From the human T2T-CHM13v2.0 reference genome, Homo sapiens: a stretch of 64,000 nucleotides of DNA. Below are positions 757 through 54,147 of the stretch, piece after piece. Location: NCBI GenBank assembly GCA_009914755.4, contig CP086569.2, positions 10,912,001 through 10,976,000 of the forward strand, given 5' to 3'. The first letter of the stretch is position 1; the number at the start of each line of letters is the position of its first letter. The translations under genes and the position numbers were made by a program. The notes under the pieces are model-generated. The model had not been told where the DNA came from. It ran no database searches and worked only from the letters and a program-made list of their open reading frames with translations.

Positions 757-983
757 ATTTCATTCTACATTCCATTCCATTCCACTCCACTCCACTCCAC
801 ATCACTCCACTGCACTCCACTCCATTCAATCCCATTGCATTCCGCTCCATTCAACTCCACTTCACCGCACTCCACTCCACTTCGTTCCATTCCACTCCAC
901 CACCTTCCGTTCTACTCCACTACAATCCACTGCAGTGCACTACTCTCCATTCCATTCCATTCCACTCTATTCCATTCCATTCC

Positions 984-1047
984 TTTTCTTCTACAGGATA
1001 TCTCTCTGTCACTCAGGCTGGAGTGCAGTGGCACAATCTCAGCTCAC
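984..1047 (-). mobile_element. Alu 3'-end relic (antisense)
   Basis: ctacaggatatctctctgtcactcaggctggagtgcagtggcacaatctcagctcac. Confidence 0.85.
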
Positions 1048-1489
1048 ATTTCCTTCACCATTCCATTCCATTCCATTCTGCTTCATTCCATTACATTACG
1101 TTCCATTTAATTCCAATCTATTGCACTGCACTCCTCTCCACACTACTCCATGCCATTCCATTCTATTACATTCCAGTTCAATCCACTCCATTTCACTACA
1201 TTCCACTCCAATTTTTTCCATTACATCCCGTTTCATTCCAGTTCCATTCGATTCCATTCCATTCCACTCCATTCCATTCCATTCCATTCCATTCCATTCC
1301 ATTCATCTCCATTTCATTCATCTCCATTCCACTCCATTCCATTCCATTCCATTCCATTCCATTCCATTCCATTCCATTCCATTCCATTCATCTCCATTCC
1401 ATTCCATTCCATTCCATTCCATTCCATTCCATTCCATTCCATTCCATTCCGTTCCATTCCATTCATCTCTATTCCATTCCATTCATTCC

Positions 1490-1550
1490 TTTTAACATCA
1501 TCTCACACTGTCACGGAGGCTGGAGTTCAGTGATAGAATCTCAGCTCACA
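1490..1550 (-). mobile_element. Alu 3'-end relic (antisense), divergent variant
   Basis: aacatcatctcacactgtcacggaggctggagttcagtgatagaatctcagctcac. Confidence 0.8.
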
Positions 1551-1926
1551 TTACATTTCACCATTCCATTCCATTCCATTCCATTCCTTTGTGTTCCATT
1601 CCACTCAACTGCACTGAATCCCACTCCATTCCACTCGCTTCAGTTCCATTCCATTCCATTCCATTTCATTCCATTCCATTCCATTCCACTCCATTCCAGT
1701 CCATTCCATTCCATTCCACTCCATTCCATTCCATTCCATTGCACTCCATCCCATTCCATTCAACTCTTTTCCACATGACTCCACTCCACTCCACTCCATT
1801 CCACAACACTCCAATCCACTCCATTCCATTCCTTTTCATTTGATCCCATTCCATTCCACTCTGTTCCACTCCACTCCACTCCTTTCCATTCCATTCCATT
1901 CCATTCCACTCCATTCCATTCAATTC

Positions 1927-1990
1927 TTTCCTTCGACAGGATCTCACTCTGTCACACAGGCTGGAGTGCAGTGGCACAATCTCAGCTGAC
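1927..1990 (-). mobile_element. Alu 3'-end relic (antisense)
   Basis: cgacaggatctcactctgtcacacaggctggagtgcagtggcacaatctcagctgac. Confidence 0.85.
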
Positions 1991-2215
1991 ATTTCATTTC
2001 ACCATTCCATTCCTTTCCACTTTATTCCACTCCACTCCACTCAAGTTCACTTCACTCATTTCCATTCCTTTCCACTGCACTCCACTCCACTCCTCTACCC
2101 TGCATTCCATCCCCTTCCATTCCACTCCATTCCACTCCATTACACTCCACTCCACTCCACTCCATTCCATTCCATTCCATTCCATTCCAATACACTCCAG
2201 TGCATCACACACTTT

Positions 2216-2277
2216 TCATTCGACAATATCTCACTTTGTCTCCCAGGCTGGAATGCAGTGGCACAATCTCAGCTCAC
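2216..2277 (-). mobile_element. Alu 3'-end relic (antisense)
   Basis: cgacaatatctcactttgtctcccaggctggaatgcagtggcacaatctcagctcac. Confidence 0.85.
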
Positions 2278-2609
2278 CTTACATTTAACCATTCCATTCC
2301 ATTCCATTACATTTCAGTGCATAACATTGTATTCCATTAGGTAACATTCCGTTCAGTTCTGTTCCACGCCACTCCATTCCACTCCACTCCACTCCAGTCC
2401 ACTCCAATCAACTTCATTCCATTCCATTCCATCCCATTTCACTCCATTCCAAACCACTCCACTCCACACCATTCCTTTCCACTCCATTCCTTTCCTTTCC
2501 ACTCCATTCCATTCTTTTCCACTCCATTCCATTCCATTCCATTCCATTCCATTCCATTCCATTCCATTCCATTCCATTCCATTAAACTCCTTTCTATTCC
2601 ATTGCCTAC

Positions 2610-2669
2610 TTTCGACAGAATCTCACTCTTTGACACAGGCTTGATTTCAGTAGCACAATCTTACCTCAC
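2610..2669 (-). mobile_element. Alu 3'-end relic (antisense), strongly diverged; marks the start of the 3.28-kb unit
   Basis: tttcgacagaatctcactctttgacacaggcttgatttcagtagcacaatcttacctcac. Near-identical copies occur at 5889, 15991 and 38465. Confidence 0.7.
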
Positions 2670-2790
2670 ATTTCAGTTCACCATACCATTCCACTGCATT
2701 CCACTCCACTTCACTCCAGTCCACTCCACTCCACATCAGTCCACGCCATTCCACTCCATATCATTCCACTCCATTTCATTCCATTCCTTT

Positions 2791-2850
2791 GTTTCAACTG
2801 GATCTCACTCTGTCACTCGGGCTGGAATGCCGAGCCCCAATCTCAACTCA
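2791..2850 (-). mobile_element. Alu 3'-end relic (antisense)
   Basis: caactggatctcactctgtcactcgggctggaatgccgagccccaatctcaactcac. Confidence 0.75.
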
Positions 2851-3167
2851 CTTTTCATTAAACTGTTCCATTCCATTCTATTGCTTTCCATTCTATTCCA
2901 GTTCATTCCATTCCTTTACATTTAATTCCATTCCATTTCATTCTATTAAATTCCATTTCACTCCACTCCACTCCGTTGCATTCCATTCCACTCAACTACA
3001 CTCCACACCACTCCATTCCATTCCATCCCCTTCCACTCCACTCCACTCCATTCCTCCCAATCCCATTCCATTCCACTCTCTTCCAGTCCACTCCACTCCA
3101 CTCCACTCCACTACAATCCATTCCATTCCATTACACTCCATTCCTCTCTCTGCCATTCCACTCTGTT

Positions 3168-3228
3168 CTTTCGACAGGATCTCACTTTATCACCAAGGCT
3201 GGAGTAACGTGGCATAAACTCAGCTCGC
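3168..3228 (-). mobile_element. Alu 3'-end relic (antisense)
   Basis: cgacaggatctcactttatcaccaaggctggagtaacgtggcataaactcagctcgc. Confidence 0.75.
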
Positions 3229-3424
3229 ATTTCATTTCAACATTCCATTGCATTCCATTACAATGCATTCCACTCCATTCCACTTCATTCCATTCCATTC
3301 CACTCCACTCCACTCCACTCGGCCTCATTGCATTCCATTCCATTTCACTCCATTCCACGCCAATCTACTCCACTCCCCTCCACTCCATTGTATTCCACTG
3401 CACTCCCTTCCATTCCATTCCTTT

Positions 3425-3486
3425 CTTTCAACAGGATCTCACTCTGTCACTCAGGATGGAGTGCAGTGGCAAAACCTCAGCTCACA
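3425..3486 (-). mobile_element. Alu 3'-end relic (antisense)
   Basis: caacaggatctcactctgtcactcaggatggagtgcagtggcaaaacctcagctcac. Confidence 0.85.
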
Positions 3487-4162
3487 TTTCGTTTCACCAT
3501 TCCTTTCCGTTCCATTTAATTCCATTCCATTACCCTCCACTCCACTCCAGTCCACTCCACTCTGCTCCATTCCACTCCAGTCCACTCCACTCCAATCTAG
3601 CACAATCCACTCTATTCCACTCAATCCCTTTCCATTCCATGGAATTCCAATCCACTCCACTCCACTCCTCTCCATTGCATTCCATCATATTCTATTCCAC
3701 TCCATTGCAGTCCACTCCACTCCACTCCTCTCCACTCCACTCCATTCCATTCCATTCCTTTCCTTTCCATTCCATTTTGCTCCATTCTCTTACATTCCAT
3801 TCCATTTATTTCCAATCCATTGCACTGCACTGCTCTCCACTCCACTCCATGTCATTCCAGTCCATTCCACTCCATTCCAAAACACTCCAATCCAATTTGT
3901 TCCATTACATCCCGTTTCATTTCACTCCATTCCACTCCTCTCCCCTCTATTCCATTCCACTCCTCTCCACTCTATTCCACTCGATTCCATTCCATTCTTT
4001 TCCATTCCATTCCATTCCATTCCACTCCAATCTACTCCGCTCCATCCCATTTAATTCCACTCCAATCCACTCCAGTCCACTCCATTCCGTGCCATTCCAT
4101 CCAATTCCGTTCTATTTTGTTCCATTCCATTCAATTCCAGTCCATTACTTTGAATTCTTTTC

Positions 4163-4222
4163 TTTTGAAATGATTTCACTCATTCACACAGGCTGGAGTG
4201 CAGTGGGAATATCTGAGCTCAC
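4163..4222 (-). mobile_element. Alu 3'-end relic (antisense), 'gggaatat' variant
   Basis: tttgaaatgatttcactcattcacacaggctggagtgcagtgggaatatctgagctcac. Confidence 0.8.
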
Positions 4223-5141
4223 ACTTCATTTTACCATTCCATTGCACTCCATTCCACTTCACTCCACTCCACCCCACTCCACTCCGTTCCATACCATTCC
4301 ATCCCAATCCATTCCATTCCACTCCACTCCATTCCATTCCACTCCATCCCATTTCATTCCACACCACAACACTCCACTACACCCCACTCACTGCCATTCC
4401 ATGCCATTTCACTCCATTCCATTTGATTCCCTTCCACTCCATTGCATTACATTCCTTTATTTCGACAGTATTTCACTCTGTCACACAGGCAGGAATGCAG
4501 TGGTACAATCTCAGCTCACATTTCATTTCACCATTTCATTTCACTCCATACCACTCCACTCCACTACACCACACTCCACTCCACTCCATGAAATCCCAAT
4601 CCATTCCATTCCACTCCATTCCATTCCATTCCTTTGCTTTCTTTCGACAGGATCTCACTCTGTCACGCAGGGTGGAGTGCAGTGGCACAATTTCAGCTCA
4701 CATTTCATTTCAATATTCCATCTCCTTCCATTCCATTCCACTCTACTCCACTCCACTTCAGTCCACTCCACTCCACTCCCCTCTATTTCATTTTGTTCCA
4801 TTCCATTCCACTCCTTTCCTTTCCTTTCTTTTGACAGGATCTCACTCTATCAAACAGGCTGGAGTGTAGAGGCATAATCTCACCTCAAATTTCACTTCAC
4901 CCTTCCATTCCATTCCGTTCCATTCCATTCCATTCCACTCCATCCCATTCCATTCAACTCCTTTCCACACGACTCCCCTCCACTCCACTCCATTCCACAA
5001 CACTCCACTCCACTGCAATCCACTCGATTCCATTCCATTCCATTTCATTTGAATCCATTCCATTCCACTCTATTCCACTCCACTCCTCTCCACTCCATTC
5101 CATTCCATTCGATTCAATTCCACTCCATTACATTCCATTCT

Positions 5142-5203
5142 TTCTTTTGAAAGGATCTCACTCTGTCACACAGGCTGGAGTGCAGTGGCACAATCTCAGC
5201 TTA
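5142..5203 (-). mobile_element. Alu 3'-end relic (antisense)
   Basis: ttgaaaggatctcactctgtcacacaggctggagtgcagtggcacaatctcagcttac. Confidence 0.85.
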
Positions 5204-5400
5204 CCTTTCATTTCACCATTCTATTCCACTTTATTCAACTCCACTCCACTCAAGTCCACTTCACTCATTTCCATTCCATTCCACTGCACTCCAATCCACT
5301 CCTCTACCCTGCATTCCATCCCCTTCCATTCCACTCCTTTCCACTCCATTCCACTCCACTCCACACCATTCCACTCCATTCCATTCCATTCCATTCCACT

Positions 5401-5470
5401 CCATTCCATTCCATTCCATTCCATTCCATTCCATTCCATTCCATTCCATTCCATTCCATTCCATTCCATT
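5401..5470. repeat. Near-perfect (CCATT)14 tract
   Basis: ccattccatt repeated without substitution from 5401 to 5470. Confidence 0.9.
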
Positions 5471-5888
5471 GCACCCCATTCCATTCCATTCCATTCCATT
5501 GCACTCCATTACATCACATACTTTTCTTTCGACAATATCTCACTTTGTCCCCCGGGCAGGAATGCAGTAGCACTATCTCAGCTCACCTTTCACTTAACCA
5601 TTCCATTCCATTACATTACATTTCAGTACATAACATTCTATTCCATTACGTAACATTCCGTTCAGTTCCATTCTACTGAACTCCATTCCACTCCACTCCA
5701 CTCCAGTCCACTCCAATCCACTTCATTCCATTCCATTCCATTCCACTCCATTCCACTCCACTCCACTCCACTCCACTCCATTCTATTCCACTCTATTCTA
5801 TTCCAATCCATTTTTTTCCATTCCACTCCATTCCATTCCACTCCATTCCATTACATTCCATTAAACTCCTTTCTATTCCATTGCCTAC

Positions 5889-5947
5889 TTTCGACAGAAT
5901 CTCGCTCTGTGACACAGGCTTGATTTCAGTAGCACAATCTCATCTCA
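5889..5947 (-). mobile_element. Alu 3'-end relic (antisense), diverged unit-start variant
   Basis: tttcgacagaatctcgctctgtgacacaggcttgatttcagtagcacaatctcatctcac. Confidence 0.7.
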
Positions 5948-7235
5948 CATTTCATTTCACCATACCATTCCACTGCATTCCACTCCACTCCACTCCACAG
6001 CAGTCCACGCCATTCCACTCCATATCATTCCACTCCATTTCATTCCATTCATTTGTTTCAACAGTACCTCACTCTGTTACCTGGGCTGGAGTGCAGAGGC
6101 CCAACCTCAACTCACATTTCATTAAACTGTCCCATTCCATTCCATTCCATTCCATTCCATTCCATTCCATTCCATTCCATTCCATTCCATTCCATTGCAT
6201 TCCATTCCATTCCATTAAATTCCATTCCATTTCATGCTATTATATTCCATTCTACTCCACTCCACTCCATTCCATTCCACTCAACTCTACTCCACTCCAC
6301 TCCAGTCCACTTCATTCCATTCCATCCCATTCCACTCCCCTCCACTCCATTCCTCCCAAATCCCCTTCCAATCCATTCCAATCCACTCCGCTCCACTCCA
6401 CTCCACTCCACTCCATTCCATTCCATTCCATTACACTCCATTCCTCTCCTTGCCATTCCACTCCGTTCTTTTCACAGGATCTCACTTTGTCACCAAGGCT
6501 GGAGTAACATGGCATAATCTCAGCTCACATTTCATTTCAACATTCTATTGTAGTCCATTACAATGCATTCCATTCCATTCTATTTCATTCCATTCCATTC
6601 CACTCCACTCCACTCTGCTGCATTCCATTCCATTCCATTTCACTCCGTTCCTCGCCAATCTACCCCACTCCTCTCCACTCCATTGTATTCCATTCCACTC
6701 CCTTCCATTGCATTCCTATCTTTCAACAGGATCTCACTCTGTCATCCAGGATGGAGTGCAGTGGCAAAATCTCAGCTCACATTTCCTTTCACCAATCCTT
6801 TCCATTCCATTAAATTCCATTCCTTTCCCCTCCATTCCACTCCAGTCCACTCCACTCCGCTCCATTCCACTCCAGTCCACTCCACTCCAATCTAGCACAA
6901 TCCACTCTATTCCACTCAATCCCTTTCCATTCCACGGAATTACAATCCAGTCCACTCCACTCCACTCCTCTCCATTGCATTCCATCATATTCTATTCCAT
7001 TCCATTGCAGTCCACTCCACTCCACTCCTCTCCACTCCATTCCATTACATTCCATTCCTCTCCATTCCATTCCACTCCAATCCACACCACTCCACACGAC
7101 TCCCTTCCACTCCATTCCATTCCACTCCACTACATTCCATTCGATTCCACTCCATTCCATTCCATTCCACTCCATTCCATTCCATTCCATTCCATTCCAT
7201 TCCATTCCATTCCACTCCTTTGCATTCCATTCCTT

Positions 7236-7276
7236 TCTTTTGACAGGATCTCACTCTGTCACCCTGGCTCATGTGC
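7236..7276 (-). mobile_element. Truncated Alu relic (internal deletion removes cagtgg...agctcac)
   Basis: ttgacaggatctcactctgtcaccctggctcatgtg joins directly to ctccattcc. The same truncation is present in the paralog at 17407-17446. Confidence 0.7.
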
Positions 7277-7355
7277 TCCATTCCCCTCCATTCCATTCCA
7301 TTCCATTCCATTCCATTCCATTCCATTCCATTCCATTCCTTTGCATTCCATTCCT

Positions 7356-7417
7356 TTCTTTTGACAGAATCTCACTCTGTCACCCTGGCTCATGTGCAGT
7401 GGCATAATCTCAGCTCA
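7356..7417 (-). mobile_element. Alu 3'-end relic (antisense), 'ccctggctcatgtg' variant
   Basis: ttgacagaatctcactctgtcaccctggctcatgtgcagtggcataatctcagctcac. Confidence 0.8.
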
Positions 7418-8117
7418 CATTACATTTCACCATTGGATTCAATTCCATTTCCTTCCATTCCGTTCCATTCCGCTCCAATCCACTCCACTCCAGTTCATTC
7501 CATTCCACTCCATCCCATTTCATTCCAATCCAATCCCCTCCAGTCCACTCCATTCCATGCCATTCCTTCCAATTCCATTCTACTGTGTCCCATTCCAATC
7601 CATTCTAGTCCATTCCATTCAATTCTTTTCTTTTGAAATGATCTCACTCATTCACACAGGCTGGAGTGCAGTGGGAATATCTGAGCTCACACTTCATTCC
7701 ATTCCATTCCATTTGATTCCATTTACCTCCATTGCATTCCATTCCTTTATTTCCACAGTATCTCACTCTGTCACACAGGCAGGAGTGCAGTGGCACAATC
7801 TCAGCACACATTTCGTTTCACCGTTGCATTTCACTCCATTCCACTCTATTCCACCACACCAGACTCCACTCCACTCCACTCCACTCCATTCCATTAAATC
7901 CCAATCCATTCCATTCCACTCCACTCCATTCCATTCCTTTGTTTTCTTTCGACAGGATCTCACTCTGTCACGCAGGGTGGAGTGCAGTGGCACAATCTCA
8001 GCTGACATTTCATTTCAATATTCCATCCCATTCCATACCATTCCACTCTACTCCACTCCACTCCACTCTATTCCATTCCGTTCCATTCCACTCCACTCCT
8101 TTCCATTCCTTTCCTTT

Positions 8118-8176
8118 CTTTTGACAGGATCTCACTCTATCAAACAGGCTGGAGTGTAGTGGCACAATCTCACCTC
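8118..8176 (-). mobile_element. Alu 3'-end relic (antisense), 'atcaaacaggctggagtgtagtgg' variant
   Basis: ttgacaggatctcactctatcaaacaggctggagtgtagtggcacaatctcacctc. Paralogs occur at 4825, 18652 and 40700. Confidence 0.8.
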
Positions 8177-9583
8177 AAATTTCACTTCACCCTTCCGTTC
8201 CGTTCCGTTCCATTCCATTCCATTCCATTCCATTCCATTCCATTCCATTCCATTCCATTATACTCCATTCCACTCATCTCCACTCCATTGCTTTCCATTC
8301 CACTCCACTTCACTCCACTCCTTTCCACTCCACTACATTACATCCCATTCTGTCCCACTCCATTCCACTCCACTCCACTCCAATCTACTCAATTCCATTT
8401 CATTACGTCACATTCCATTCCGTTCCATTCCACTCCACTCCAATCCACTCAACTGAACTTTCTATTCCATTCCATTCCATTCTATTCCACTCCACTCAAT
8501 CCAATTCACTCCATTCCATTCCATCCCGTTTCATTCCACTCCACTCCACACCACTCCACTCCACTCCATTCCATGCCATTCCATCCAATTCCATTCTATT
8601 CCGTTCAATTCCAATCCATTCCTGTCCATTCCATTCATTTCGTTTCTTTTTAAATGATCTCCCTCAGTCACACGGGCTGGAGTTCGGTGGGAAAATCTGA
8701 GCTTCATTTCATTTCACCATTCCATTGCACTCCATTCTACTCCATTCCACTCCACCCCACTCCACTCCATTCCATTCCATTCCATCCCAATCCATTACAT
8801 TCCACTCCATTTCATTCCTTTCTTTTCTTTCATAAGGATATCAGTCTTTCACGCAGGGTGAAGTGGAGTGGCACAATCTCAGTTCACATTTTATTTCAAC
8901 TTTCCACTCTGTAGCATTCCATTGCAGTCCGTTTCTTTCCATTCCTTTATTTTACAGTATCTCACTCTGTCACTCCGGGTGGAGTGCAGTCGCATAATCT
9001 CAGCTCACATTACATTTCAGCATTGCATTCCATTCCATTCCACTCTATTCCATTCCATTCGTTTCCATTCAATTCCGCTCTACTCCACTCCACTGCATTT
9101 CATTTCATACCATTCCATTCCACTCCACTTCACTCTAATCCACTCAATTCCATTCCATCCCATGACATTCCTCTCCACTAAACTCCACTCCATTCCATTC
9201 CCCTCCATCCCGTTTCATTCCACACAACTACACTCCACTACACTCCATTTCCTGCCATTCCACCTCATTTCATTCCACTCCAATCCATTCCATTTGATTC
9301 CATTCCACTCCATTGCATTACATTCCTTTTTTTTTCCGACAGTATCTCACTCGGTCACACAGGCTGTTGTGCAGTGGCACAATCTCAGCTCACAATTCAT
9401 TTCACCATTTCATTTCACTCCATACCACTCTACTACACTGCACCACAATCCACTCCACTCCACTCCACTCCTTCCACTCCATTTAATCCAAATCCATTCC
9501 ATTCCACTCCATTCCATTCCATTCCTTTGCTTTCTTTCAATAGGATCTCACTCTGTCACACAGGGTGGAGTGTAGTGGCATAA
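8160..9583. repeat. Block B head + first 1.3-kb sub-unit; paralogous copy at about 40743-42177, offset about 32.6 kb
   Basis: Artefact ORFs at 8654..8914 and 41248..41508 are identical. Those at 8868..9575 and 41462..42169 differ at 2 residues. Landmarks 8645~41238, 8825~41420, 8950~41545, 9325~41920, 9530~42127. Confidence 0.85.
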
Positions 9584-9939
9584 TCTCAGCTCACATTTCA
9601 TTTCAATATTCCATCCCATTCCATTCCATTCCACTCCACTCCCCTCCACTCCAGTCCACTCCACTCCATTGCACTGTATTCCATCCCAGTCCATTCCACT
9701 CCATTCTACACCACTCCACTCCACTCCATTGCATTACATTCCAATCAATTCCATTCCATCCCACTCCATCCCATTCCATTCCATTCCATTCCATTCCATT
9801 CCATTCCACTCCACTCCACTCCACTCCAATCCATTCCATCTCATTGCATTCCACTCCACTCCATTCCATGCCATTCCATCGAATTCCATTCTATTCCGTT
9901 CCATTCCAGTCCATTCCTGTCCATTCCATTCAATTCGTT

Positions 9940-9998
9940 TCTTTTGAAATGATCTCAGTCACACTGGCTGGAGTGCAGTGGGAAAATCTGAGCTCACA
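9940..9998 (-). mobile_element. Alu 3'-end relic (antisense), 'gggaaaat' variant marking the 1.3-kb sub-unit boundary
   Basis: ttgaaatgatctcagtcacactggctggagtgcagtgggaaaatctgagctcac. The same variant occurs at 8645, 11207, 12537, 19165, 20420 and 41238. Confidence 0.8.
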
Positions 9999-11206
9999 TT
10001 TCATTTCACCATTCCACTGTACTCCATTCCACTCCACTCTACTCCATCCCACTCCACTCCATTCCACTCCATTCCATCCCAATCCATTCCATTCCACTCC
10101 ATTCCATTCCTTTCCTTTCGTCAGAATATCACTCTTTCACGCAGGGTGTAGTGCAGTGGCACAATCTCAGTTCACATTTCATTTCAACTTTCTACTCCAT
10201 AGCATTCCATTGCAGTCCCTTTCTTTCCATTCCTTTCTTTTGACAGGATCTCACTCTGTCACTCAGGGTGGAGTGCAGTCGTATAATCTCAGCTCACATT
10301 ACATTTCATCATGGCATTCCATTCCATTCCACTCGTTTTGTCTCCATTTCACTCTACTCCACTCCACTCCACTGCACTCCTTTTCATACCATTCCATTCC
10401 ACTCCACTTCACTCTAATCCACTCAATTCCATTCTATCCCATTCCATTCCGCTCTACTCCACTCCACTCCACTACACTCCATTCCATTCCACTCTATCCC
10501 GTTTCATTCCACACTATTACGCTCCACTACACTCCATTTCCTGCCATTCCACCCCATTTCATTCCTTTCCATTCCTGTCCATTTGATTCCATTCCACTCC
10601 ACTGCATTCCATTCCTTTTTTTCAACAGTATCTCACTCGGTTACACAGGCTGGTGTGCAGTGGCAGAATCTCAGCTCACAAAACATTTCACCATTTCATT
10701 TCCCTCCATACCACTCCACTACACTACACCACACCCCACTCCACTCCACTCCACTCCATTAAATCCAAATCCATTCCATTCCACTCCATTCCACTCCATT
10801 CCTTTGCTTTCTTTCAATAGGATCTAACTCTGTCACGCAGGGTGGAGTGCAGTGGTACAATCTCAGCTCACATTTCATTTCAATATTCCTTCCCATTCCA
10901 TTCCATTCCATTCCACTCCACTCCACTCCTCTCCACTGCACTCCATTGCATTTTATTCCATCCCAGTCCATTCCACTCTATTCTACACCACTCCACTCCA
11001 TTGCGTTACATTCCAACTGATTCCATTCCATCCCACTCCATCGAATTCCATTCCACTCCATTCCATTCCATTCCATTCCGTTCCATTCCAGTCCACTCCA
11101 CTCCACTCCAAATCACTCCAATCCATTCCATCCCATTTCATTCCACTCCACTCCATTCCATTCAATTCAATCCAATTCCATTTTATTCCATTCCATTCAA
11201 TTTGTT

Positions 11207-11268
11207 TCTTTTGAAAGGATCTCAGTCAGTCACACTGGCTGGAGTGCAGTGGGAAAATTTGAGCTTAC
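11207..11268 (-). mobile_element. Alu 3'-end relic (antisense), 'gggaaaat' variant
   Basis: ttgaaaggatctcagtcagtcacactggctggagtgcagtgggaaaatttgagcttac. Confidence 0.8.
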
Positions 11269-12536: not shown

Positions 12537-12598
12537 TTCTTTTGAAAGGATCTCACTGAGTCACACTGGCTGGAGTGCAGTGGGAAAATTTGAGCTTA
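12537..12598 (-). mobile_element. Alu 3'-end relic (antisense), 'gggaaaat' variant
   Basis: ttgaaaggatctcactgagtcacactggctggagtgcagtgggaaaatttgagcttac. Confidence 0.8.
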
Positions 12599-13282: not shown

Positions 13283-13346
13283 TTTCTTCTACAGGCTATA
13301 TCTTTGTCACTCAGGCTGGAGTGCAGTGGCACAATCTCAGCTCACA
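13283..13346 (-). mobile_element. Alu 3'-end relic (antisense)
   Basis: ctacaggctatatctttgtcactcaggctggagtgcagtggcacaatctcagctcac; paralog of 984. Confidence 0.8.
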
Positions 13347-45100: not shown

Positions 45101-46063
45101 ACTCCACTCCACTCTAATCCACGCCATTCCACTCCATTCAATTCCATTTCAGTCCATTCCACTCCATTCGACACCACTCCAATCCACTCAACTCCACTTC
45201 ATTCCACTTCAGTCCACTCCACTCCAGTCCACTCCACTTCATTAGCGTCCATGCAATTCCATTCCACTTCACTGCCCTTCACTCCACTACACGCCACTCC
45301 ATTCCATTCCATTCCATCCCAGTTTATTGCACTCCATTCCACACCACCCACTCCACTCCACTCCATTCCATTCCAATCCATCCCATTCCATTCCATCCCA
45401 TTCCATTCCATTCCATTCCATTCCATCCCTGTGCATCCCCGTCTATTCCATTCCATTTCGTTCCATTCCATTCCTTTCTTCTGACAGGATCTCACTCTCT
45501 CACCTTGGCTGTAGTGAAGTGGCACAATCTCAGCTCACATTACATTTCACCATTGCATTCCATTCCATTTCACTCCTTTCCATTCCATTCCTTTCCACTC
45601 CATTCCATTCCATTCCATTCCATTCCATTCCATTCCATTCCATTCCATTGCATTCCATTCCATTCCATTCCATTCCATTCCATTCTATTTCACTCCACTC
45701 CACTGAACTCCACTCCACTCCACTGCACTCCAATCCATTCCATTCCATTCCATTCCATTTCACTCGACTCCATTCCAATCCACTCCACTCCATTACACTC
45801 CATTCCATTCCATCCCATTCATCCCATTCAATTTCCCTCTTCTCCATTCCACTCCACTCCACTCCAATTCACTCCATTCCATTGCATGCCATTCCATTCC
45901 ACTCCTCTCCATTCCACTCCACTCCGCACTCCTCCTTTCCACTCCATCTCATTCCATTCCACTCCATTCCACTCCACTCAACTGCACTTCATTCCACTGT
46001 ACTGCATTCCATTTCATTCCACTCCCTTCCATTTTTTTCCACTCCCTTACATTCCATTCCTTT

Positions 46064-46125
46064 CTTTTGACAGGATCTCATTCTCTCACACAGGCTGGAG
46101 TGTAGCGGCACAATCTCGGCTCACA
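46064..46125 (-). mobile_element. Alu 3'-end relic (antisense); retains two CpGs
   Basis: ttgacaggatctcattctctcacacaggctggagtgtagcggcacaatctcggctcac. Confidence 0.8.
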
Positions 46126-49100
46126 TTTCATTTCGACATTCTATTCCATTGCAATCCATTGCACTCCGTTCCATTCTATTGCATTCCATTGCATTCCATT
46201 CCATTCCATTCCTCTCCACTCCATTCTACTCCACTCCAGTCCACTCTGCTCCAGTACACTCCACTCCATTCCATTCATCTCCATTCCATTACTTTCCTTT
46301 CTTTCGACAGGATCTCACTCTTTCACCCAAGTTGGTGTGCAGTGGAAAAATCTCAGCTCACATTTCATTGCACCATACCATTCCATTCCATCCCATCCCA
46401 CTCCATTACTTTAAATTCCATTCCATTACAGTCCACTCCACCCCATTTCACTCCACTCCACACCACTCCACTCCTCTCCATCCATTCCATTCCACTCCAT
46501 TCCATTCTACTCCACTCCACTTCTTTACCATAATCCCATTCCATTCCACTGCAATCCACTCCACTCCACTCCTGTCCACTCCATTCCATTCCATCCCATC
46601 CCATCCCGTTCAAACCAATCAACTCCACTCCACTCCACTCCACTTCACTCCATACCGTTCCATTCCGTTCCACTCCTTTCCATTGCATTCCTTTCTTTCA
46701 ACAGGATCTTATTGTGTCTGCCAGGTTCGAGTGCAGTGGCACAATCTCAGCTCACATTTCATTGCACTATACTATTCCGTGCCATTCCACTCCACTCCAT
46801 TCCTTTAAATTCCATTCCATTCTAGTCCCCTCCACTCTACTCCACTTCACTCACTCTACTCCACACCACTCTACTCCACTCCATTCCATCCCATTCCATT
46901 CCACACCACTCTACTCCACTCCATTCCATCCCATTCCATTCCACTCCACTTCTTTCCATTCCATTCCATTCCACTCCACTCCATTACACTCCTGTCCGCT
47001 CCACTTCAGTCCATTCCATTAAATTGCATTCCATTCCACTCCTTTCCTTTCCATTCCTTTCTCTTGAAAAGATCTCACTCTGTCACCCAGTCTGAAGTGC
47101 AGTGGCACAGTCTTAACTCACATTTCATTTCACCATTCCATTGCATTCCATTCAATTGCATTCCTTTCCATTCTGTTCCATTACATTCCACTCCACTCCC
47201 CTCCACCCTGCTGCTTTCCATTCAATTCCATTCCTCTCCATTCCACTCCACACTACTCCATTCCTCTCCACTCCATCCCATTCTATCCAATTCCATTCCA
47301 TTCCATTCCAGTCAACTGCACTCCATTCCACTCCATTGCATCCCATTGCATTCCACTCCATTTCACTGCACTCCACTCCACTCCATTTCCTTCCACTCGA
47401 TTTCGTTCCATTAGACTCCACTGCACTCCCGTCCACTACTTTCCACTCCATTCCATTCCACTCCATTCCATTTCATTATTTTTCTTCGACAGGATCTCAC
47501 TCTGTCCCTCAGGCTGAAGTGTAGTGCCACAATCTCAGCTCAAATTTCATTTCGCCATTCCATTGCATTCCATTCCATTAAATTTAATTCCAATCCTCTC
47601 CACTTCACTCCACTCCACTCCACTCCATCCCAATTCATTCTCATACATTCCATCCAATTCCACTCCATTGCACTCCATGCCTTTTCAACTATATTCCGTT
47701 TCATCCCTTCTCATTCCACTCCATTCCTCTCCTCTCCACTTTACTCCACGTCACTATTCTCCACTCCATTCCTCTCCATTCCATTCCATTCCATTCCATT
47801 CCATTCCATTCCATTCCATTCCATTCCACTCCATTTCATTCCATTGCTTTCTTTCAACAACATCATCCTCTTTCACACAGGCTGGAATGCAGCAGTACAA
47901 TCTCAGCTAACATTTTATTTCACCATTACATTTGCTTCCATTCCATTCTATTCAATTCCACTCCACTGCACTTCATTAACTCCACTCCATTTCGTACAGT
48001 TCCATTCCATTCCATTCCACTCCATTCCACTTCACTCCCCAACACTCCACTCCATTCCAATCCATCCCATACCATTCCACTCCATTCCGCGCCACTCCCT
48101 TCCACTCCACTGAACTCCATTCCATTCCATTCCATTCCATTCCATTCCATTCCATTCCATTCCATTTCACTCCATTCCACACCATTCTATTCCATTCCAT
48201 TCCTTTCTTTCGACAGTATGTGTCTCTGACACAAAGGCTGATGTGTAGTGGCCCAATCATAGCTCACATTTCATTTCACCATTCCATTCCCTTCCATTCC
48301 ATTGCATTCCATTCCATTCAATTCCATTCTTTTCCACTCCACTCCACTCCACTCCACTCCATGCCATGACATTCCATTACATTCCAGTCCAATCCAATCT
48401 ATTCCACTCCACTCCACAACACTGTATTCCATTACATCCCTTCCCATTCCACTCCATTCCACTTGTCTCCACTCTAATCCACGCCACTCAACTCCTCTGC
48501 ACTCTATCCCATTCCATGCCATTCCACTCCATTCCACTCCATTCCATTCCCTTCCTTTTTGTAGACAGGATCGGACTCTTTGACTCAGGCTACAGTGCAG
48601 TGCCACACACTCAGCTCACATTTCATTTCACCATTTCATTGCATTCCATTCCATTCCTTTCCATTTACTTCAAATCAATTACACTTCACTCCACTCCACT
48701 CCACGCCATTTCATTCCATTACATTCCAGTACATTCTACTCCATTACACTCCACTCCACGAGGCTATATTCCATTACATCTCATACCGTTCCACTCCATT
48801 CCACTCCTATCCAATCTACTCCATTCCACACCACTTCCTCTCCACGCTATTCCATTCCATTCCATTCCATTCCACTCTGTTCCTCTCCATTCCCTTCCCT
48901 TCCTTTTCATAGACAGGATCTCACTCTTTCACTCAGGCTAGAATGCAGTGACACACTCTCAGCTCATATTGCGTTTCACCATTCCATTGAATTCCATTCC
49001 ATTCCATTCCATTTAATTCAAATCCATTCCACTCCACTCCCCACCATTCCATTCCATTACATTCCAGTGCATTCCACTCCAATCCACTCCACTCCACTAT

Positions 49101-49400
49101 GCTATATTCCATTTCATCCCGTCCCATTCCACTCCTCTCCACTCTACACCACTGCACTACACTCCTATCCACTCCATTCCATTCCATTCCATTCCATTCC
49201 ATTCCATTCCATTCCACTCCACTCCATTCCATTCCATTCCACTCCATTCCATTCCATTCCTTCCTTTCGACAACATCTCACTCTGTCATGCAGACTGGAG
49301 TGCAGTGGCACAATCTCAGCTCACGTTTCATTTCACCATTCCATTCCCTTACATTCCATTCCATTCCACTCAACTGCACTGCACTCCACTACATTCTATT

Positions 49401-49465
49401 CCATTCCATTCCATTCCATTCCATTCCATTCCATTCCATTCCATTCCATTCCATTCCATTCCATT
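49401..49465. repeat. Perfect (CCATT)13 tract
   Basis: ccattccatt uninterrupted. Confidence 0.9.
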
Positions 49466-50576
49466 CCACTGCATCCCATTCCATTCCACTCTATTCCAAA
49501 CCACTCCACTCCACTCCAATTCATTCCACACCACTCCACTCCACTCCATTGCATTCCATTCCAACCAATTCCATTCCACTCCGTTACATTCCACTCCAGT
49601 CCACTCGATTCAATTCCATCCCATAGCATTTCTCTCCATTCCTTTCCATTCTTTCTTTCAACAAGATCTTACTCTGTCACAGGCTGGAGTGCAGTGGCCC
49701 AATCTTAGCTCACATTTTATTTCACCATTCCATTCCATTCGATTCCACTCAATTCCACTACACTCTACTCAAGTCCACTCCACTCCATTCCATTCCATTC
49801 CACTGCCCTCCACTCCACTCCTCTCTTCTCCGTTCCATCCGATTCCATTCCCCTCCTTTCCAACACACTTCACTCCACTTCTCTCCATTCCGTGCCTTTC
49901 CATTCCATCACGTTCCACTCCACTCCACTCCACTCCACTCCACTCCACTCCATTCCAATACACACCATTACATTACATTCCTTTCTTTCGACAGGATCTC
50001 ACTCTGTCAAACAGGCTGGAATACAGTGGCACAATCTCAGCTCACATTTTATTTAACCATTGCATTCCATTCCATTCCCATTTGTTCCGTTCCATTCCGT
50101 TCCACTGAACTACACTGCACTCCATTCCACTCCACTCCAGTCCATTCCGCTCGACTTCACTCCGTTCCATTCCATTCCATTCCACTCCATTTCACACAAC
50201 TCCACTCCAGTAAAATCCTCTTCACTCTGTTACATTTTATCCCATTCCATTCCACTCCATTCGATTCCATTCCATTCCGTTCCATTCCTTTCCATTCTGT
50301 TCCATTCCATTCCACTCCATTTCATTCCACTCCATTCCACTCTATTCCTTTCCTTTCCATTCCACTCTGTTCCACTGCATTCCACTCCACTCCATTCCAC
50401 TCCACTCAATTCGCTTCCTCCCCTCTATTCCAATCCATTCATTTACTCTGCATTACATGCCATTCCACTCCATTCCAGTCCACTTCATTACACTCCCTCC
50501 ATTCCACTCCACTGCACTCCATTTTATTCCACTATACTCCATTCCATTCAATTCTAATACAAATCATTCCATTCCT

Positions 50577-50640
50577 TTATTTCGACTGGATCTCACTTTA
50601 TCACTTGGACTGGAATGTAGAGGCACATTCTTAGTCGACA
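50577..50640 (-). mobile_element. Alu 3'-end relic (antisense), subtype-2; single copy where the paralogous region 30354/30902 has two
   Basis: ttatttcgactggatctcactttatcacttggactggaatgtagaggcacattcttagtcgac. Confidence 0.7.
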
Positions 50641-51954
50641 TTTCATTTCACTATTCCATTCCATTCCATTTCATTCCGTTGCATTCCATTCCATTCCAAT
50701 GCATTCCATTCCATTCCCTTCCATCAATTCCGTTCCCTTCCATTCCATTCCACCGCACTCTGATCATCTCCACTCAACTCCATTCCACTCCACTCCACTC
50801 CACTTTGTTCTGTTCAGATCCATTCCATTCCATTTCATTCCATTCCAGGCCATTCCTCTCCATTCAACTCCACTCCATTGCATTCCATTCCACGCCACTC
50901 CACTCCCTTCCCCTCCACTCCATTCCACTCCATTCCATTCCAATTCACTCCTCTTCATTTTATTCCAATGCACTCGATTCCATTCCACTCCAGTCCACTC
51001 CACTCCATTCCATTTCGTTCCATACCACTGAACTCCAATCCACTCCACTCAAATCCACTCCACTCCACTCCTCTCCACTCCATTGTATTCCGCTCCGTTT
51101 CGTTCCATTCTTTTCCATTTCAGTCCACTTCATTTCACTCCATTCCATTCCATTCCACTCCATTTCATTAAATTCCTTTCAAATCGATTCCACTCCATTC
51201 CACTGAATTCCATTCCTCTCTATTCCACTTCATTCCATTCCACTCGATTCCATTCCACTCCATTCCACCCTACACCACTCCATTCCACCTCAGTCCATTC
51301 CACTCAAGTGCACTAAACTCCCCTCCACTCCACTCCATTCCATTCAATTCTATTCCATTCTATTCCACTGCACTATGATCCACTCCACTGTACTCCTCTC
51401 CACACTTCTCTACACCTTTCTGTTCCTTTCCTTTCTGTTCTGATCCTTTCCATTCCATTCCACTCCATTCTATTACACTCCACTCCACTCCACTTCATTC
51501 CATTTCACTCCATTCCACTCCATTCCACTTCAATCCATTCCAATCCAATCCACTACCATCCACTCCACTCCACTCCATTCTATTACACTCCATTCATTTC
51601 CTTTCCACTCAATTCCATTCCATTCCATTCCATTACACTCCACTCCATTCCACTCCACTGCATTCCACTGTATTCCACTCCACTCTCCTCCACTCAATTC
51701 CATTCAATTAAACTCCATTCCATTGTATTCCATTACACTTCATTCAACTTTATTCCACGCCACTCCAGGCCACTACACTCCTTTCCAATCCTCTCCATTC
51801 CGTTGCACTCCATTCCATTCCAGTCCACTCCATTCCATTCCATTCCATTCCATTCCATTCAACTCCATTCCATTCCGTTCCATTCCATTCTGTTCCATTC
51901 CATTCCATTCCATTCCATTCAACTCCATTCCATTCCATTCCATTCCATTCCGTT

Positions 51955-52008
51955 CCATTCCATTCCATTCCATTCCATTCCATTCCATTCCATTCCATTA
52001 TTTTGACT
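51955..52008. repeat. Perfect (CCATT)n tract abutting a subtype-2 Alu relic
   Basis: ccattc x about 10, then ttttgactggatctcac. Confidence 0.85.
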
Positions 52009-53033
52009 GGATCTCACTCTGTCACCCAGAATGGAGTACAGTGGCACAATCTTAGCTCACGTTTCTTTTCACCGTTCGATTCCATTTTTTTGCATTCCAA
52101 TCCATTCCATTCCATACCATTGCATTGCATTCCACTCCATTCCACTCCATTCCATTCCAATGCTCTCGGATCCCCTCAACTCAAACCCACCCCACTGCAC
52201 TCCACTCCACGACGTTTGATCCATTCAATTCCATTCTGTTCCATTCCCTTCCATTGCATTCCACTCCATTCTATTGCAATCCAATCCATTCCATTCCACT
52301 CTATTCCACTCCACTCCACTCCATTGCACTCAACTCCACTTCACACCACTCCAGTCCACTCCATTGCATTCCTTTCCTTTCCATTCCTCTCCACTCTACT
52401 CCAATCCACTCCACCACATTCCATTCAATTCCATTCCATTGCACTCCGATGATTTCCTCTCAACTCCACTCCCCTCCACTCCATTCCATTCCATTCTGTT
52501 CTCTTCCATTCTATTCCACTCAATTCCATTCCACCCCCCTCCATTCCACTGCACTCCATTTCTGTCCATTCCTATTCACTTCACTCCACTCCACTTGTCT
52601 CAATTCCATTCCAATCCCTTCCATTCCATTCCGTTACATTCCATTCAATTCTTTCCACGCCATTCCACTCCGTTCCACTCCACTCCATTCCACTCCATTG
52701 CACTCCACTCCATTCCACTCCATTGCACTCCACTCCATTCCACTCATCTCCATTCCACTCCAATCCACTGCATTCCACTCCACTCCATTCCACTCCATTG
52801 CACTCCACTCCATTCCACTCCATTGCACTCCACTCCATTCCACTCATCTCCATTCCACTCCAATCCACTGCATTCCACTCCATTCCATTCCATTCCATTC
52901 CATTCCATTCCACTCCATTCTACTCCATTCCACACCACTCCATTCCACTCCTTTCCACTCCATTGTACCCCATTCCATTCCGCTCCACTCCATTCCATTC
53001 CATTCCATTCCACTCCTTTCCATTTCATTCCAT

Positions 53034-53095
53034 TATTTTGATTGGATATCTTTCTGTCACCCAGACTGGGGTGCAGTGGCACAGTCGTAGCTCAC
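53034..53095 (-). mobile_element. Alu 3'-end relic (antisense), subtype-2
   Basis: ttattttgattggatatctttctgtcacccagactggggtgcagtggcacagtcgtagctcac. Confidence 0.75.
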
Positions 53096-54147
53096 ATTTC
53101 TTTTCACCATTCGATTCCATTCCTATGCATTCGAATCCATTCTATTCCATTCCATTCCGTTCCTTTCCATTAAATTATTTTCCATTCCTTTCCATTCCAT
53201 TCCACGCCACTCCATTCCATTCCACTCCACTCCACTCCACTCCATTTCCTTCCATTCCATTCCACGCCATTCTACTCCACTCCATTCCATTCGTTTCCTT
53301 TCCTTTGCATTGCATTCCACTGCACTCTGATGCACTCCACTAAACTCCAGTCCACTCTCCTCCACTCCACTTCGCTCCATTCTATGCCATTCTGTTCCGT
53401 TTCATTCAGTTGCATTCCATTCCAGTCCACTCAATTCCACTCCACTCCATTTCACTCCATTCCATTCCATTCCACTGCATTCCATGCCTTTCCATTCTGC
53501 TCCATTCTACTCCATTCCACTGCACTCCATTCCACTGCACTCCATGCCACTCCACTCCACTCCATTCAACTTCATTCCATGGCACTCCACTCCATTCCAT
53601 TCCATTCTACTACATTCCATTCCATTCCTTTATTTCTATGGGATCTCACTCTGACAACGAGAACGGAATGCAGTGGCCCAATCTTAGCTCACATTTCATT
53701 AACCATTCCACTCCACTCCATTCCATTCCATTCTACTCCATTCCATTTCATTCCTTTATTTGGACGGAATCTCACTCTCTCACACAGACTGGAGTGTCGT
53801 GTCCCAATCTTAGCTCACATTTCATTAACCATAGCATTTCTTTCCATTCCATTCCATTTCATTCCATTCCACTGCACTCCGATCCACTCTTCTGAACTCC
53901 ACTACACTCCACTCTGCTCTAGAGATTTCCATTCCGTTCCATTCCGTTCCGTTGCAGTTCACTCCACTCTACTTCATTACATTCCACTTCATTACACTCC
54001 ATTCCTCTCCACTTCACTCCATTCCCCTCCTTTCCACTCCATTCCGTTCCATTCCATTCCATTCCTTTCCATTCCATTACACTCCATTCCATTCCATTCC
54101 AATGCACTCCATTCCATTCCATTCTACTCCGTTCCAATCCATCCCTT

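What the first reader, a model, noticed from the sequence alone, without database searches (positions are those of the whole stretch)
775..54140. Multi-level higher-order structure with mosaic block order (T, A, B, C blocks present in different combinations in three partial copies)
Seen: besides the 5-bp unit there are seven further repeat levels.
- An about 0.67-kb unit, present once at about 820-1490 and twice at 13090-14430.
- An about 1.3-kb unit, with 3 tandem copies at 8645-12535, 2 at 19165-21320, and less than 1 at 41238-42187.
- A 3.28-kb unit (2600-5880), whose A part recurs diverged at 5880.
- Blocks at about 9-13 kb offsets: 5880-8650~15980-19170 (about 10.1-10.5 kb), 9935-12150~19165-21320 (about 9.2 kb), and 775-2600~13075-15400 (about 12.3-13.0 kb).
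- A pair at about 20-21 kb offset: 21240-34290~42125-54140.
- A pair at 32.6 kb offset: 8160-9583~40743-42177.
- A pair at 35.9 kb offset: 1600-4900~37500-40750.

Block order differs between copies:
- Copy 1 = T-A-T-A'-B(3 sub-units), then directly T again with no C.
- Copy 2 = T(+extra 670 bp, +370-bp dup 15361-15731)-A'-B(2)-C-D.
- Copy 3 = T-A-B(<1)-C-E.

Inference: the array is evolving by repeated unequal crossing-over. Exchange points sit at paralogous Alu-relic-bearing sub-units; for example, the relic at 42127 carries the variant sites of 9530 but is followed by block-C sequence as at 21241. This differs from a clean n-mer HOR as seen in alpha satellite or DYZ1.
Basis: seen in the sequence. 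Interest (0 to 1): 0.55.

Follow-up and report, generated by a model that had tools for sequence, protein, structure and literature searches.

The report
Nested repeat blocks in pentamer satellite
The window is primate satellite-III-type heterochromatin, a (CATTC/CACTC)n repeat sprinkled with short Alu remnants, in which a 12-22 kb stretch is present in three rearranged partial copies; the blocks are real, but this is the ordinary way such satellites are built.

Summary
Non-homologous pieces of the same window give 79% and about 30 gaps per 1.5 kb.

The window is a one-strand (CATTC/CACTC)n satellite of the HSat3 type. It carries 166 same-oriented ~57-bp remnants of the 3' end of an Alu, which divide it into sub-units of 119-1685 bp. 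In sub-unit notation there are three direct partial copies of one long unit: 769-13067, 13067-34300 and 37467-54140.

Older nested duplications sit inside these copies and diverge by about 9-12%. They are a 3.3-kb unit in two variants (U1, U2), a 1.3-kb unit in three variants (a, b, c), and a 1.9-kb and a 0.67-kb unit. The three big copies differ by only 2.5-3.9%, and each lacks a different subset of the older units.

Five junctions were narrowed to 2-100 bp. All are compatible with unequal exchange. Their closeness to Alu remnants is not beyond chance (P=0.15). Identical runs of 370-559 bp suggest gene conversion.

This matches the published "nested tandem repeat" organisation of HSat2/3 and the reported Alu fragments in HSat3 arrays. 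It is ordinary and of low interest. Species, chromosome and HSat3 subfamily could not be determined.

The parts
58..63965 (+). Pentamer satellite, (CATTC)n with a large CACTC fraction, one orientation throughout
   Evidence: TRF finds period 5 over 58-63965. GC skew is about -0.7 in every 2-kb bin. CATTC occurs 3437 times and CACTC 2335 times. No inverted repeat of 40 bp or more.
359..62694 (-). 166 remnants of an Alu 3' end (about 57 bp, Alu consensus ~224-282, plus an A-tail trace). They are antisense on the + strand and delimit 162 sub-units of 119-1685 bp.
   Evidence: nhmmer with a profile of the remnants gives 166 hits on one strand and 0 on the other, with the same ends. Mean divergence from their own consensus is 14.6% and all Alu CpGs are lost.
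769..13096 (+). Copy 1. Parts: T (769-2592); 3.3-kb unit variant U1 (2593-4811); partial diverged T' (4812-5871); variant U2 (5872-8101); L (8102-8629); 1.3-kb units a (8630-9924), b (9925-11191), c (11192-12522) and truncated d (12523-13067). There is no block C.
   Evidence: Sub-unit string and best matches, identity tables, HSPs.
13067..34300 (+). Copy 2. Parts: T with an extra old 0.67-kb unit (13067-15601); C' + U2 (15602-18637); L (18638-19145); 1.3-kb units b (19146-20403) and c, lacking its last sub-unit (20404-21223); block C (21224-34300).
   Evidence: Units b and c are 95-100% identical to copy-1 b and c, but 88-94% to a.
34301..37466 (+). Spacer 'D': the same satellite with remnants, but no close paralog in the window
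   Evidence: Units 97-107 have best matches of only 73-80% including gaps. No off-diagonal line.
37467..54140 (+). Copy 3. Parts: distal T (37467-38447); U1-type D-G (38448-40045); U2-type H-I-J (40046-40685); L (40686-41223); a single 1.3-kb unit of type a lacking its last sub-unit (41224-42111); block C (42112-54140).
   Evidence: The a-unit is 99-100% identical to copy-1 a.
54141..64000 (+). Flank 'E': older-looking domain with sparse remnants (12 in 10 kb) and long sub-units
   Evidence: Only a local tandem repeat at 62903-64000.
15568..15592 (+). Junction J1 (copy 2, T | C' of U2). The switch lies inside a perfect (ATTCC)5 run just 5' of a remnant and is out of register.
   Evidence: Three-way alignment with 2451-2700 and 5390-5628.
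40074..40174 (+). Junction J2 (copy 3). Switch from U1-type to U2-type at or near the remnant of sub-unit H, in register.
   Evidence: Informative sites per 100 bp change from (13,1) to (1,4)-(1,12).
42219..42237 (+). Junction J3 (copy 3). Switch from the 1.3-kb unit a to block C, 10-27 bp 3' of a remnant, in register.
19130..19154 (+). Junction J4 (copy 2). L joined to 1.3-kb unit b, skipping a, at the 5' edge of a remnant, in register.
13069..13096 (+). Junction J5 (end of copy 1 | start of copy 2). A 28-bp pentamer stretch is shared by both parents; it is about 155-170 bp from the nearest remnants.
23750..24308 (+). Longest identical run between copies 2 and 3 (559 bp, within about 1.5 kb at 0.5% divergence against a 2.6% mean): a conversion-like patch. 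Others are 6422-6827 (406 bp), 9266-9635 (370 bp) and 10231-10521 (291 bp).
   Evidence: Permutation of difference positions gives no permutation reaching the observed run in 2000 for the first two runs, P=0.002 and P=0.0105 for the others. Index of dispersion 2.0-5.4.

Best explanation
This is a stretch of primate classical satellite III (HSat3-type) heterochromatin organised as nested tandem repeats.

Proposed history:
1. A (CATTC)n array, with many units mutated to CACTC, acquired one 5'-truncated Alu 3' end.
2. The remnant plus its adjoining pentamers was amplified into sub-units of variable length.
3. Groups of sub-units were then duplicated in tandem. This gave 0.67-, 1.3- (a, b, c), 1.9- and 3.3-kb (U1, U2) units, now about 9-12% diverged.
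4. Later a long unit of roughly 25 kb (T-U1-T'-U2-L-a-b-c-block C) came to be present in at least three direct copies, now 2.5-3.9% diverged.
5. Each copy then lost a different subset. Copy 1 lost block C. Copy 2 lost most of U1 and unit a. Copy 3 lost the start of T, one 3.3-kb period (leaving a U1/U2 hybrid) and units b and c.

Proposed mechanisms:
- Block-scale changes came from misaligned (unequal) exchange between paralogous repeats, on sister chromatids or homologues.
- Pentamer slippage changed tract lengths.
- Short gene-conversion tracts re-homogenised patches.

Shown: the blocks, their identities, the order of ages, the junction intervals, the indel spectrum, and the lack of constraint on the remnants. 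Inferred: the ancestral unit, the direction of each event, the recombination mechanism, and the satellite's genomic location.

No sequence-specific function is indicated. The DNA behaves as neutrally evolving heterochromatin. As in other HSat3, it offers about 33 GGAATG (TEAD-core) sites per kb.
For: - Pentamer satellite on one strand.
- 166 co-oriented Alu remnants with common ends.
- Collinear runs of up to 30 successive sub-units between copies.
- Block identities of 88-99% against a 79% background.
- Two age classes. U1 vs U2 is 85-91%, and a, b, c are 88-94% to each other, but same-type units are 95-100% identical across copies. The big copies diverge by 2.5-3.9%.
- Junction intervals of 2-100 bp, three of them in register.
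- 91 of 116 indels are multiples of 5 bp.
- Over-dispersed differences and identical runs of 291-559 bp (P from 0 in 2000 permutations to 0.0105).
- Remnants and pentamer tracts diverge equally (2.6 vs 2.9%, P=0.35).
- At least 120 independent metagenome contigs (350 kb) carry the same Alu/satellite junction. They have the same remnant density and pentamer mix, and 219 pairs are 95-98.5% identical. None is 90% or more identical to the window, so the window's blocks are local duplications within a large family.
- Literature: HSat2/3 form multi-kb nested tandem repeats whose periodicity varies locally, and HSat3 units often include ancient TE fragments (10.1101/2021.07.12.452052). HSat3 arrays are intermingled with Alu fragments on Y and the acrocentrics (10.1101/2022.12.01.518724). 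Sat III is made of GGAAT and GGAGT (PMC7767330). ACTCC repeats are concentrated on chromosomes 13, 14, 15, 21, 22 and Y (PMC11305138).
Against: - None of the fourteen 'most common subfamily-specific 24-mers' of Altemose 2014 Table 1 occurs in the window, even with one mismatch apart from a single one-mismatch HSat3A1 match. The classic CAACCCGA(A/G)T decamer is also absent. The subfamily is therefore unassigned, and the host may not be human.
- Two junctions (J1, J5) are out of register with only 25-28 bp of generic pentamer identity. Homologous crossing-over does not require this, and replication-based rearrangement explains it equally well.
- With only three copies and no outgroup, the ~25-kb ancestral unit and the 'differential deletion' direction are the most economical reading, not a demonstrated one.
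- The divergence of the T block (93-96%) is higher than that of the other blocks.
Confidence: 0.85

Rival explanations
1. The mosaic was produced mainly by replication-based or end-joining rearrangements (template switching, MMBIR/FoSTeS, microhomology-mediated joining) within the satellite, not by meiotic or mitotic unequal homologous crossing-over.
For: J1 (15568-15592) and J5 (13069-13096) join non-orthologous positions. They share only 25-28 bp of plain (ATTCC)n-type sequence. Pentamer-scale slippage is pervasive: 91 of 116 indels are multiples of 5 bp.
Against: J2, J3 and J4 are in-register switches between paralogous units, with long flanking homology on both sides. Losses correspond to whole periods of 1.3 or 3.3 kb. 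No junction shows inserted or inverted sequence, and there is no strand switch in 64 kb.
Confidence: 0.25
2. The three copies were always structurally different paralogs. Their mosaic similarity is due chiefly to gene conversion pasting tracts from one copy into another, rather than to exchange with gain or loss of blocks.
For: Identical runs of 291-559 bp and a roughly 890-bp patch at 99-100% (8630-9517 vs 41224-42111) are embedded in about 97% surroundings. Differences are over-dispersed, with an index of 2-5.
Against: Conversion does not change block content. The copies differ by presence or absence of 1.3-, 2.9-, 3.3- and 13-kb segments. Most aligned sequence is evenly 2.5-3.9% diverged over many kb, which fits duplication of the whole unit.
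Confidence: 0.15
3. The repeats are an assembly artefact: a false duplication or mis-join in a hard-to-assemble satellite.
For: Satellite arrays are error-prone to assemble. The source and read support of the window are unknown.
Against: The copies differ by 2.5-3.9% substitutions and 116 indels spread along their length. The older units differ by 9-12%. False duplications would be near-identical. Independent metagenome contigs of the same family also contain multi-kb paralogs at 95-98.5%.
Confidence: 0.03
4. The off-diagonal similarity is only the generic resemblance of low-complexity pentamer DNA.
For: Any two pieces of the window align at about 79%.
Against: The claimed pairs reach 88-99% with 5- to 10-fold fewer gaps. 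They are collinear over up to 13 kb and 30 sub-units.
Confidence: 0.01

Closest known systems
Nested tandem repeats (NTRs) of human satellites 2 and 3 (Altemose et al., 10.1101/2021.07.12.452052), e.g. DYZ1/HSat3A6 (~3.6 kb) and chr1 HSat2A2 (1.77 kb)
   Same: Both derive from (CATTC)n. Both have multi-kb units built of unequal sub-repeats. Periodicity changes locally within an array, and evolution by unequal exchange is inferred. [quoted passage not shown]
   Different: There is no long homogeneous array of one period here. The window holds only 1-3.4 copies of each unit, at 3-12% divergence, with different deletions in each large copy. None of the published top subfamily 24-mers is present.
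Acrocentric satellite III subfamily pTRS-47 / HSat3A4 (1366-bp unit, PMC4022460; described, from my memory of Choo et al. 1990, as GGAAT/GGAGT monomers in a 1.37-kb higher-order unit on chromosomes 14 and 22)
   Same: A mix of GGAAT and GGAGT pentamers. A unit of about 1.3 kb (1267-1331 bp here).
   Different: The HSat3A4 marker 24-mer is absent (0 matches with up to 1 mismatch). The 1.3-kb unit is present in at most 3.4 copies and is nested in larger units.
HSat3 arrays intermingled with Alu fragments on chrY and the acrocentric short arms (Rhie et al., 10.1101/2022.12.01.518724)
   Same: Pentamer satellite with many Alu fragments. That paper reports no local homogenisation of the fragments. 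This agrees with the 24.6% mean pairwise divergence of the remnants here.
   Different: Here all remnants share the same ends and orientation. That points to one founding insertion amplified with the satellite. Their chromosomal origin could not be checked.
HSat1B / DYZ2 composite satellite (Alu + AT-rich + GC-rich parts, ~2.4-2.5 kb)
   Same: A 5'-truncated Alu piece is a fixed component of a satellite repeat unit.
   Different: DYZ2 is AT-rich and not pentameric, with a regular 2.4-2.5 kb unit. The window is 43-47% GC pentamer repeat with irregular sub-units.
Alpha-satellite higher-order repeats
   Same: Hierarchical repeats shaped by unequal exchange and conversion.
   Different: Alpha-satellite HORs have a discrete number of about 171-bp monomers and more than 95% homogeneous copies. 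Here sub-units vary 14-fold in length and the copies form a mosaic.

Membership tests
Classical satellite III / HSat3 | Derived from tandem (CATTC)n = (GGAAT)n pentamers | tested here: met
   TRF finds period 5 over 58-63965. The five rotations of CATTC are the commonest 5-mers, followed by the rotations of CACTC.
Classical satellite III / HSat3 | Carries subfamily-specific 24-mers of one of the 11 HSat3 subfamilies (Altemose 2014) | tested here: inconclusive
   Only the single most common marker per subfamily (Table 1) could be tested. All have 0 exact matches. The held copy of the full marker list is cut off within HSat2A1.
Classical satellite III / HSat3 | Interspersed CAACCCGA(A/G)T decamer of the classic Sat III consensus (Prosser 1986; own knowledge; PMC8125562 mentions 'a specific 10 bp sequence') | tested here: not met
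   0 occurrences of the decamer or of its 8-bp core on either strand. This excludes the decamer-bearing type, not HSat3 as a whole.
Classical satellite III / HSat3 | Pericentromeric, acrocentric short-arm or Yq location in a hominoid genome | not testable with these tools
   No primate genome collection is available. The only indirect hints are the Alu remnants (which imply a primate) and the CACTC richness (PMC11305138 places ACTCC on chromosomes 13, 14, 15, 21, 22 and Y).
Nested tandem repeat (NTR) organisation | Long repeat units made of sub-repeats of unequal length, as opposed to a discrete number of equal monomers | tested here: met
   Sub-units are 119-1685 bp. Units of 0.67, 1.3, 1.9 and 3.3 kb are nested in copies of 12-22 kb.
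Alpha-satellite-type HOR | Equal-length monomers, fixed n-mer, homogeneous (>95%) tandem copies | tested here: not met
   Sub-unit lengths vary 14-fold. The tandem 1.3-kb copies are 90-92% alike. Block content differs between copies.
HSat3A4 / pTRS-47 | 1366-bp unit of GGAAT/GGAGT monomers with sequence identity to the clone | tested here: inconclusive
   The pentamer mix and an approximately 1.3-kb period are met. The marker 24-mer is absent. The clone sequence is not held.
HSat1B / DYZ2 | Composite of Alu, a >85% AT segment and a GC-richer segment, ~2.4-2.5 kb period | tested here: not met
   GC is 43-47% in every 2-kb bin. There is no AT-rich segment and no 2.4-2.5 kb period.

The most novel reading that the evidence does not exclude
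The borders of the Alu remnants act as preferred exchange or conversion points inside a pentamer satellite, so that an ancient transposon fragment organises where the heterochromatin array breaks and re-joins. In addition, short conversion tracts (370-559 bp, 0% divergence) still pass between paralogous copies 10-33 kb apart.
Probability: 0.12. Interest if true: 0.4.

Novelty: new member of a known kind. Interest (0 to 1): 0.15.

Why it matters
It matters little beyond bookkeeping. The window is a clean, small worked example of how HSat3-type arrays are built. Old nested duplications are frozen inside younger large copies that then lose different pieces, with slippage and conversion on top. 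Such maps are useful for reading acrocentric or Y heterochromatin, for choosing copy-specific markers, and for dating array turnover. The organisation itself and its presumed mechanism are already described for human satellites 2 and 3.

Tried and rejected
- I tested the fourteen Table-1 subfamily markers of Altemose 2014 and opened the full marker file. The held text stops within HSat2A1, so no subfamily assignment was possible.
- I scanned bacterial and archaeal genome contigs for the Alu/satellite junction 31-mer and found nothing.
- The metagenome scan found at least 120 contigs of the same family. None was 90% or more identical to the window, so it gave family context but no locus or species.
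- I looked up two stop-free ORF products in the assembly index in the hope of finding the source record. They are not on record.
- The Rfam scan and the inverted-repeat search found nothing.
- A shuffle of sub-unit order as a control for the 24-mer offset spectrum was a poor control. Single long sub-unit pairs already give up to 1011 shared 24-mers in one offset bin, against observed peaks of 1265-1824. I rely on collinear alignments instead.
- I tested whether junctions cluster at remnants. The result is not significant (P=0.15).
- I tested whether remnants are conserved relative to pentamer tracts. They are not.
- Three papers could not be read because they are not held: the Altemose 2022 review, Choo 1990 and Jarmuz 2007.
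- I did not attempt absolute dating. The remnants are 14.6% from their own consensus, so a genome-average clock is clearly unsafe here.

Full report
**What the sequence is.**
The whole window is one strand of a pentamer satellite.
- TRF reports period 5 from 58 to 63965.
- GC skew is about -0.7 in every 2-kb bin.
- The commonest 5-mers are the rotations of CATTC (about 3450 each), followed by those of CACTC (about 2200 each).
- There is no inverted repeat of 40 bp or more, no strand switch and no Rfam family.
- CpG is depleted: 9.2 per kb against 22.9 expected.

**The Alu remnants.**
A motif of about 57 bp is interspersed through the satellite. Its consensus is CGACAGGATCTCACTCTGTCACACAGGCTGGAGTGCAGTGGCACAATCTCAGCTCAC.
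- It aligns to positions ~224-282 of the Alu consensus, plus a trace of the A-tail, and is antisense on the + strand.
- A profile search finds 166 copies, all on the same strand and with the same ends.
- They are 14.6% from their own consensus and 24.6% from each other. The consensus has lost every Alu CpG.
- The simplest reading is one 5'-truncated Alu insertion that was amplified together with the satellite.
- The remnants cut the window into 162 sub-units of 119-1685 bp.

**Check of the observation.**
Self-megablast and a text dot plot show discrete lines at all stated offsets. Semi-global alignments of each claimed pair give 88-99.4% substitution identity with few gaps. Non-homologous 1.5-kb pairs from the same window give 78.7 +/- 1.4% (maximum 81.1) and about 31 gaps. 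The corrections are listed under the observation check.

**Anatomy in sub-unit notation.**
- Copy 1 (769-13067): A a2 B C | D E F G H I J | a2' B' C' | D' E' F' G' K x I J | L | (I M N I O) x3 | I M N(truncated).
- Copy 2 (13067-34300): A x a2 B C | C' D' E' F' G' K H I J | L | (I M N I O)(I M N I) | J P Q I M R I J S ... l. This last part is block C, with 30 sub-units.
- 34.3-37.5 kb has no close paralog.
- Copy 3 (37467-54140): (a2) B C D E F G | H I J | L | (I M N I) | block C.
- 54.1-64 kb is a different domain with sparse remnants.

**Two age classes.**
The 3.3-kb unit exists in two variants.
- U1 occurs in copy 1 (first unit) and copy 3. U2 occurs in copy 1 (second unit) and copy 2.
- For sub-units C, E, F and G, same-type pairs are 96-100% identical and different-type pairs are 85-91%.

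The 1.3-kb unit exists in three variants.
- Variant a: copy 1 and copy 3, 99-100% identical.
- Variant b: copy 1 and copy 2, 97-100%.
- Variant c: copy 1 and copy 2, 95-98%.
- The variants are 88-94% identical to each other.

The stretch J-L-I-M-N-I is also an old paralog of J-P-Q-I-M-R-I in block C (about 82-83% including gaps; L vs Q 89-92% substitution identity). These nested duplications therefore predate the large copies, which differ by only 2.5-3.9%.

The most economical history is a long unit of roughly 25 kb (T-U1-T'-U2-L-a-b-c-block C) present in three copies, each having lost different pieces. This is an inference. Without an outgroup, each difference could be a gain in one copy or a loss in another.

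**Junctions.**
- J1 (15568-15592) lies in a perfect (ATTCC)5 run just 5' of a remnant. It joins C of T to C' of U2 out of register.
- J2 (about 40074-40174) switches from U1-type to U2-type around the remnant of H, in register.
- J3 (42219-42237) lies just 3' of a remnant. After the switch the sequence follows block C as in copy 2.
- J4 (19130-19154) lies at the 5' edge of a remnant and skips unit a, in register.
- J5 (13069-13096) is a 28-bp pentamer stretch shared by both parents, about 155-170 bp from the nearest remnants.

Four of the five intervals lie within 35 bp of a remnant. But 46% of the region does too, so P=0.15. The claim that exchange points sit at the remnants is not established beyond the trivial fact that every sub-unit has one.

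**Other processes visible.**
- 91 of 116 indels between copies are multiples of 5 bp, which indicates pentamer slippage. A few are whole sub-units of 160-534 bp.
- Differences between copies are over-dispersed, with an index of 2-5.
- There are identical runs of 559, 406, 370 and 291 bp. None of 2000 permutations reached the observed length for the first two, and the other two give P=0.002 and P=0.0105. These suggest short conversion tracts or more recent local exchange.
- Remnants and pentamer tracts have diverged equally between the young copies (2.6 vs 2.9%, P=0.35). Nothing suggests selection on the remnant.

**Related sequences elsewhere.**
- A 31-mer spanning the Alu/satellite junction occurs in at least 120 metagenome contigs, presumably host contamination. 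It occurs in no bacterial or archaeal genome contig.
- Those 350 kb have the same remnant density (one per 467 bp, median spacing 334 bp) and the same CATTC/CACTC mix.
- They contain 219 contig pairs that are 95-98.5% identical over 0.5-6.5 kb.
- None is 90% or more identical to the window over 150 bp.
- So the family is large and heterogeneous, multi-kb paralogs at a few per cent divergence are typical of it, and the window's blocks are local duplicates.

**Comparison with what is known.**
- Altemose et al. (10.1101/2021.07.12.452052) describe HSat2/3 as (CATTC)n derivatives organised in multi-kb 'nested tandem repeats'. [quoted passage not shown]
- Rhie et al. (10.1101/2022.12.01.518724) report HSat3 arrays intermingled with Alu fragments on Y and the acrocentrics, and unequal exchange in Yq12.
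- PMC7767330 describes Sat III as GGAAT and GGAGT in varying proportions, mainly on acrocentric short arms.
- PMC11305138 places ACTCC repeats on chromosomes 13, 14, 15, 21, 22 and Y.
- PMC4022460 lists a 1366-bp unit (pTRS-47) for acrocentric HSat3A4.
- PMC12873891 shows a three-copy duplication inside an acrocentric HSat3 region with 86-90% intra-array identity.

The window fits this picture in every testable respect. The exceptions are that none of the fourteen top subfamily marker 24-mers is present and that the classic decamer is absent. The subfamily, and strictly the species, therefore remain open.

**Verdict.**
The finding is a real and accurately described structure. Its main interpretation, unequal exchange in a nested repeat, is reasonable, but it is neither new nor fully demonstrated. 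The structure is an ordinary instance of a known kind of satellite organisation.

Noticed in passing
window 54141-64000: A different domain of the same satellite. It has only 12 Alu remnants in 10 kb (about one per 330 bp upstream), sub-units of 0.3-1.7 kb, and the remnant variant GACTGGAGTG. It has no paralog above 84% substitution identity in the window.
   Followed up: partly
window 62903-64000: Local tandem repeat, 62903-63419 ~ 63479-64000 (offset about 578 bp, 90.9%), running off the end of the window.
   Followed up: no
window 29928-31044 and 24750-25300: Copy 2 of block C has sub-unit-scale tandem duplications that copy 3 lacks. One is a 534-bp gap at 29969 (the two halves are 92.5% alike). 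The other is about 500 bp in several pieces at 24.75-25.3 kb.
   Followed up: partly
window, whole: All 75 ORFs of 170 aa or more lie on the + strand. This is a by-product of the stop-free reading frames of CATTC/CACTC, not evidence of genes. Two of them were looked up and are not on record in the assembly index.
   Followed up: yes
loci L001-L120 (metagenome contigs): At least 120 metagenome contigs contain the same Alu/pentamer junction, probably as host DNA contamination. Many pairs are 95-98.5% identical over up to 6.5 kb. L020 and L102 are the same sequence on opposite strands.
   Followed up: partly
window, all 166 remnants (e.g. 1916-2013): The remnant consensus has lost all CpGs of the Alu 3' end. 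Its last bases (GAGATCCTGTCG in Alu sense) look closer to the older AluJ-type ending than to the AluS/Y type. This rests on consensus sequences recalled from memory, so it is weak.
   Followed up: no
window 13740-14411: The 'extra' 0.67-kb unit of copy 2 is only 88-92% like its neighbours and the copy-1 unit. It is older than the big copies and was probably lost from copy 1 rather than gained in copy 2.
   Followed up: yes
window 7614-7732 vs 17957-18253: Sub-unit H is 297 bp in copy 2 but 119 bp in the U2 part of copy 1. A 178-bp deletion starts inside a remnant (gap at 7695).
   Followed up: no
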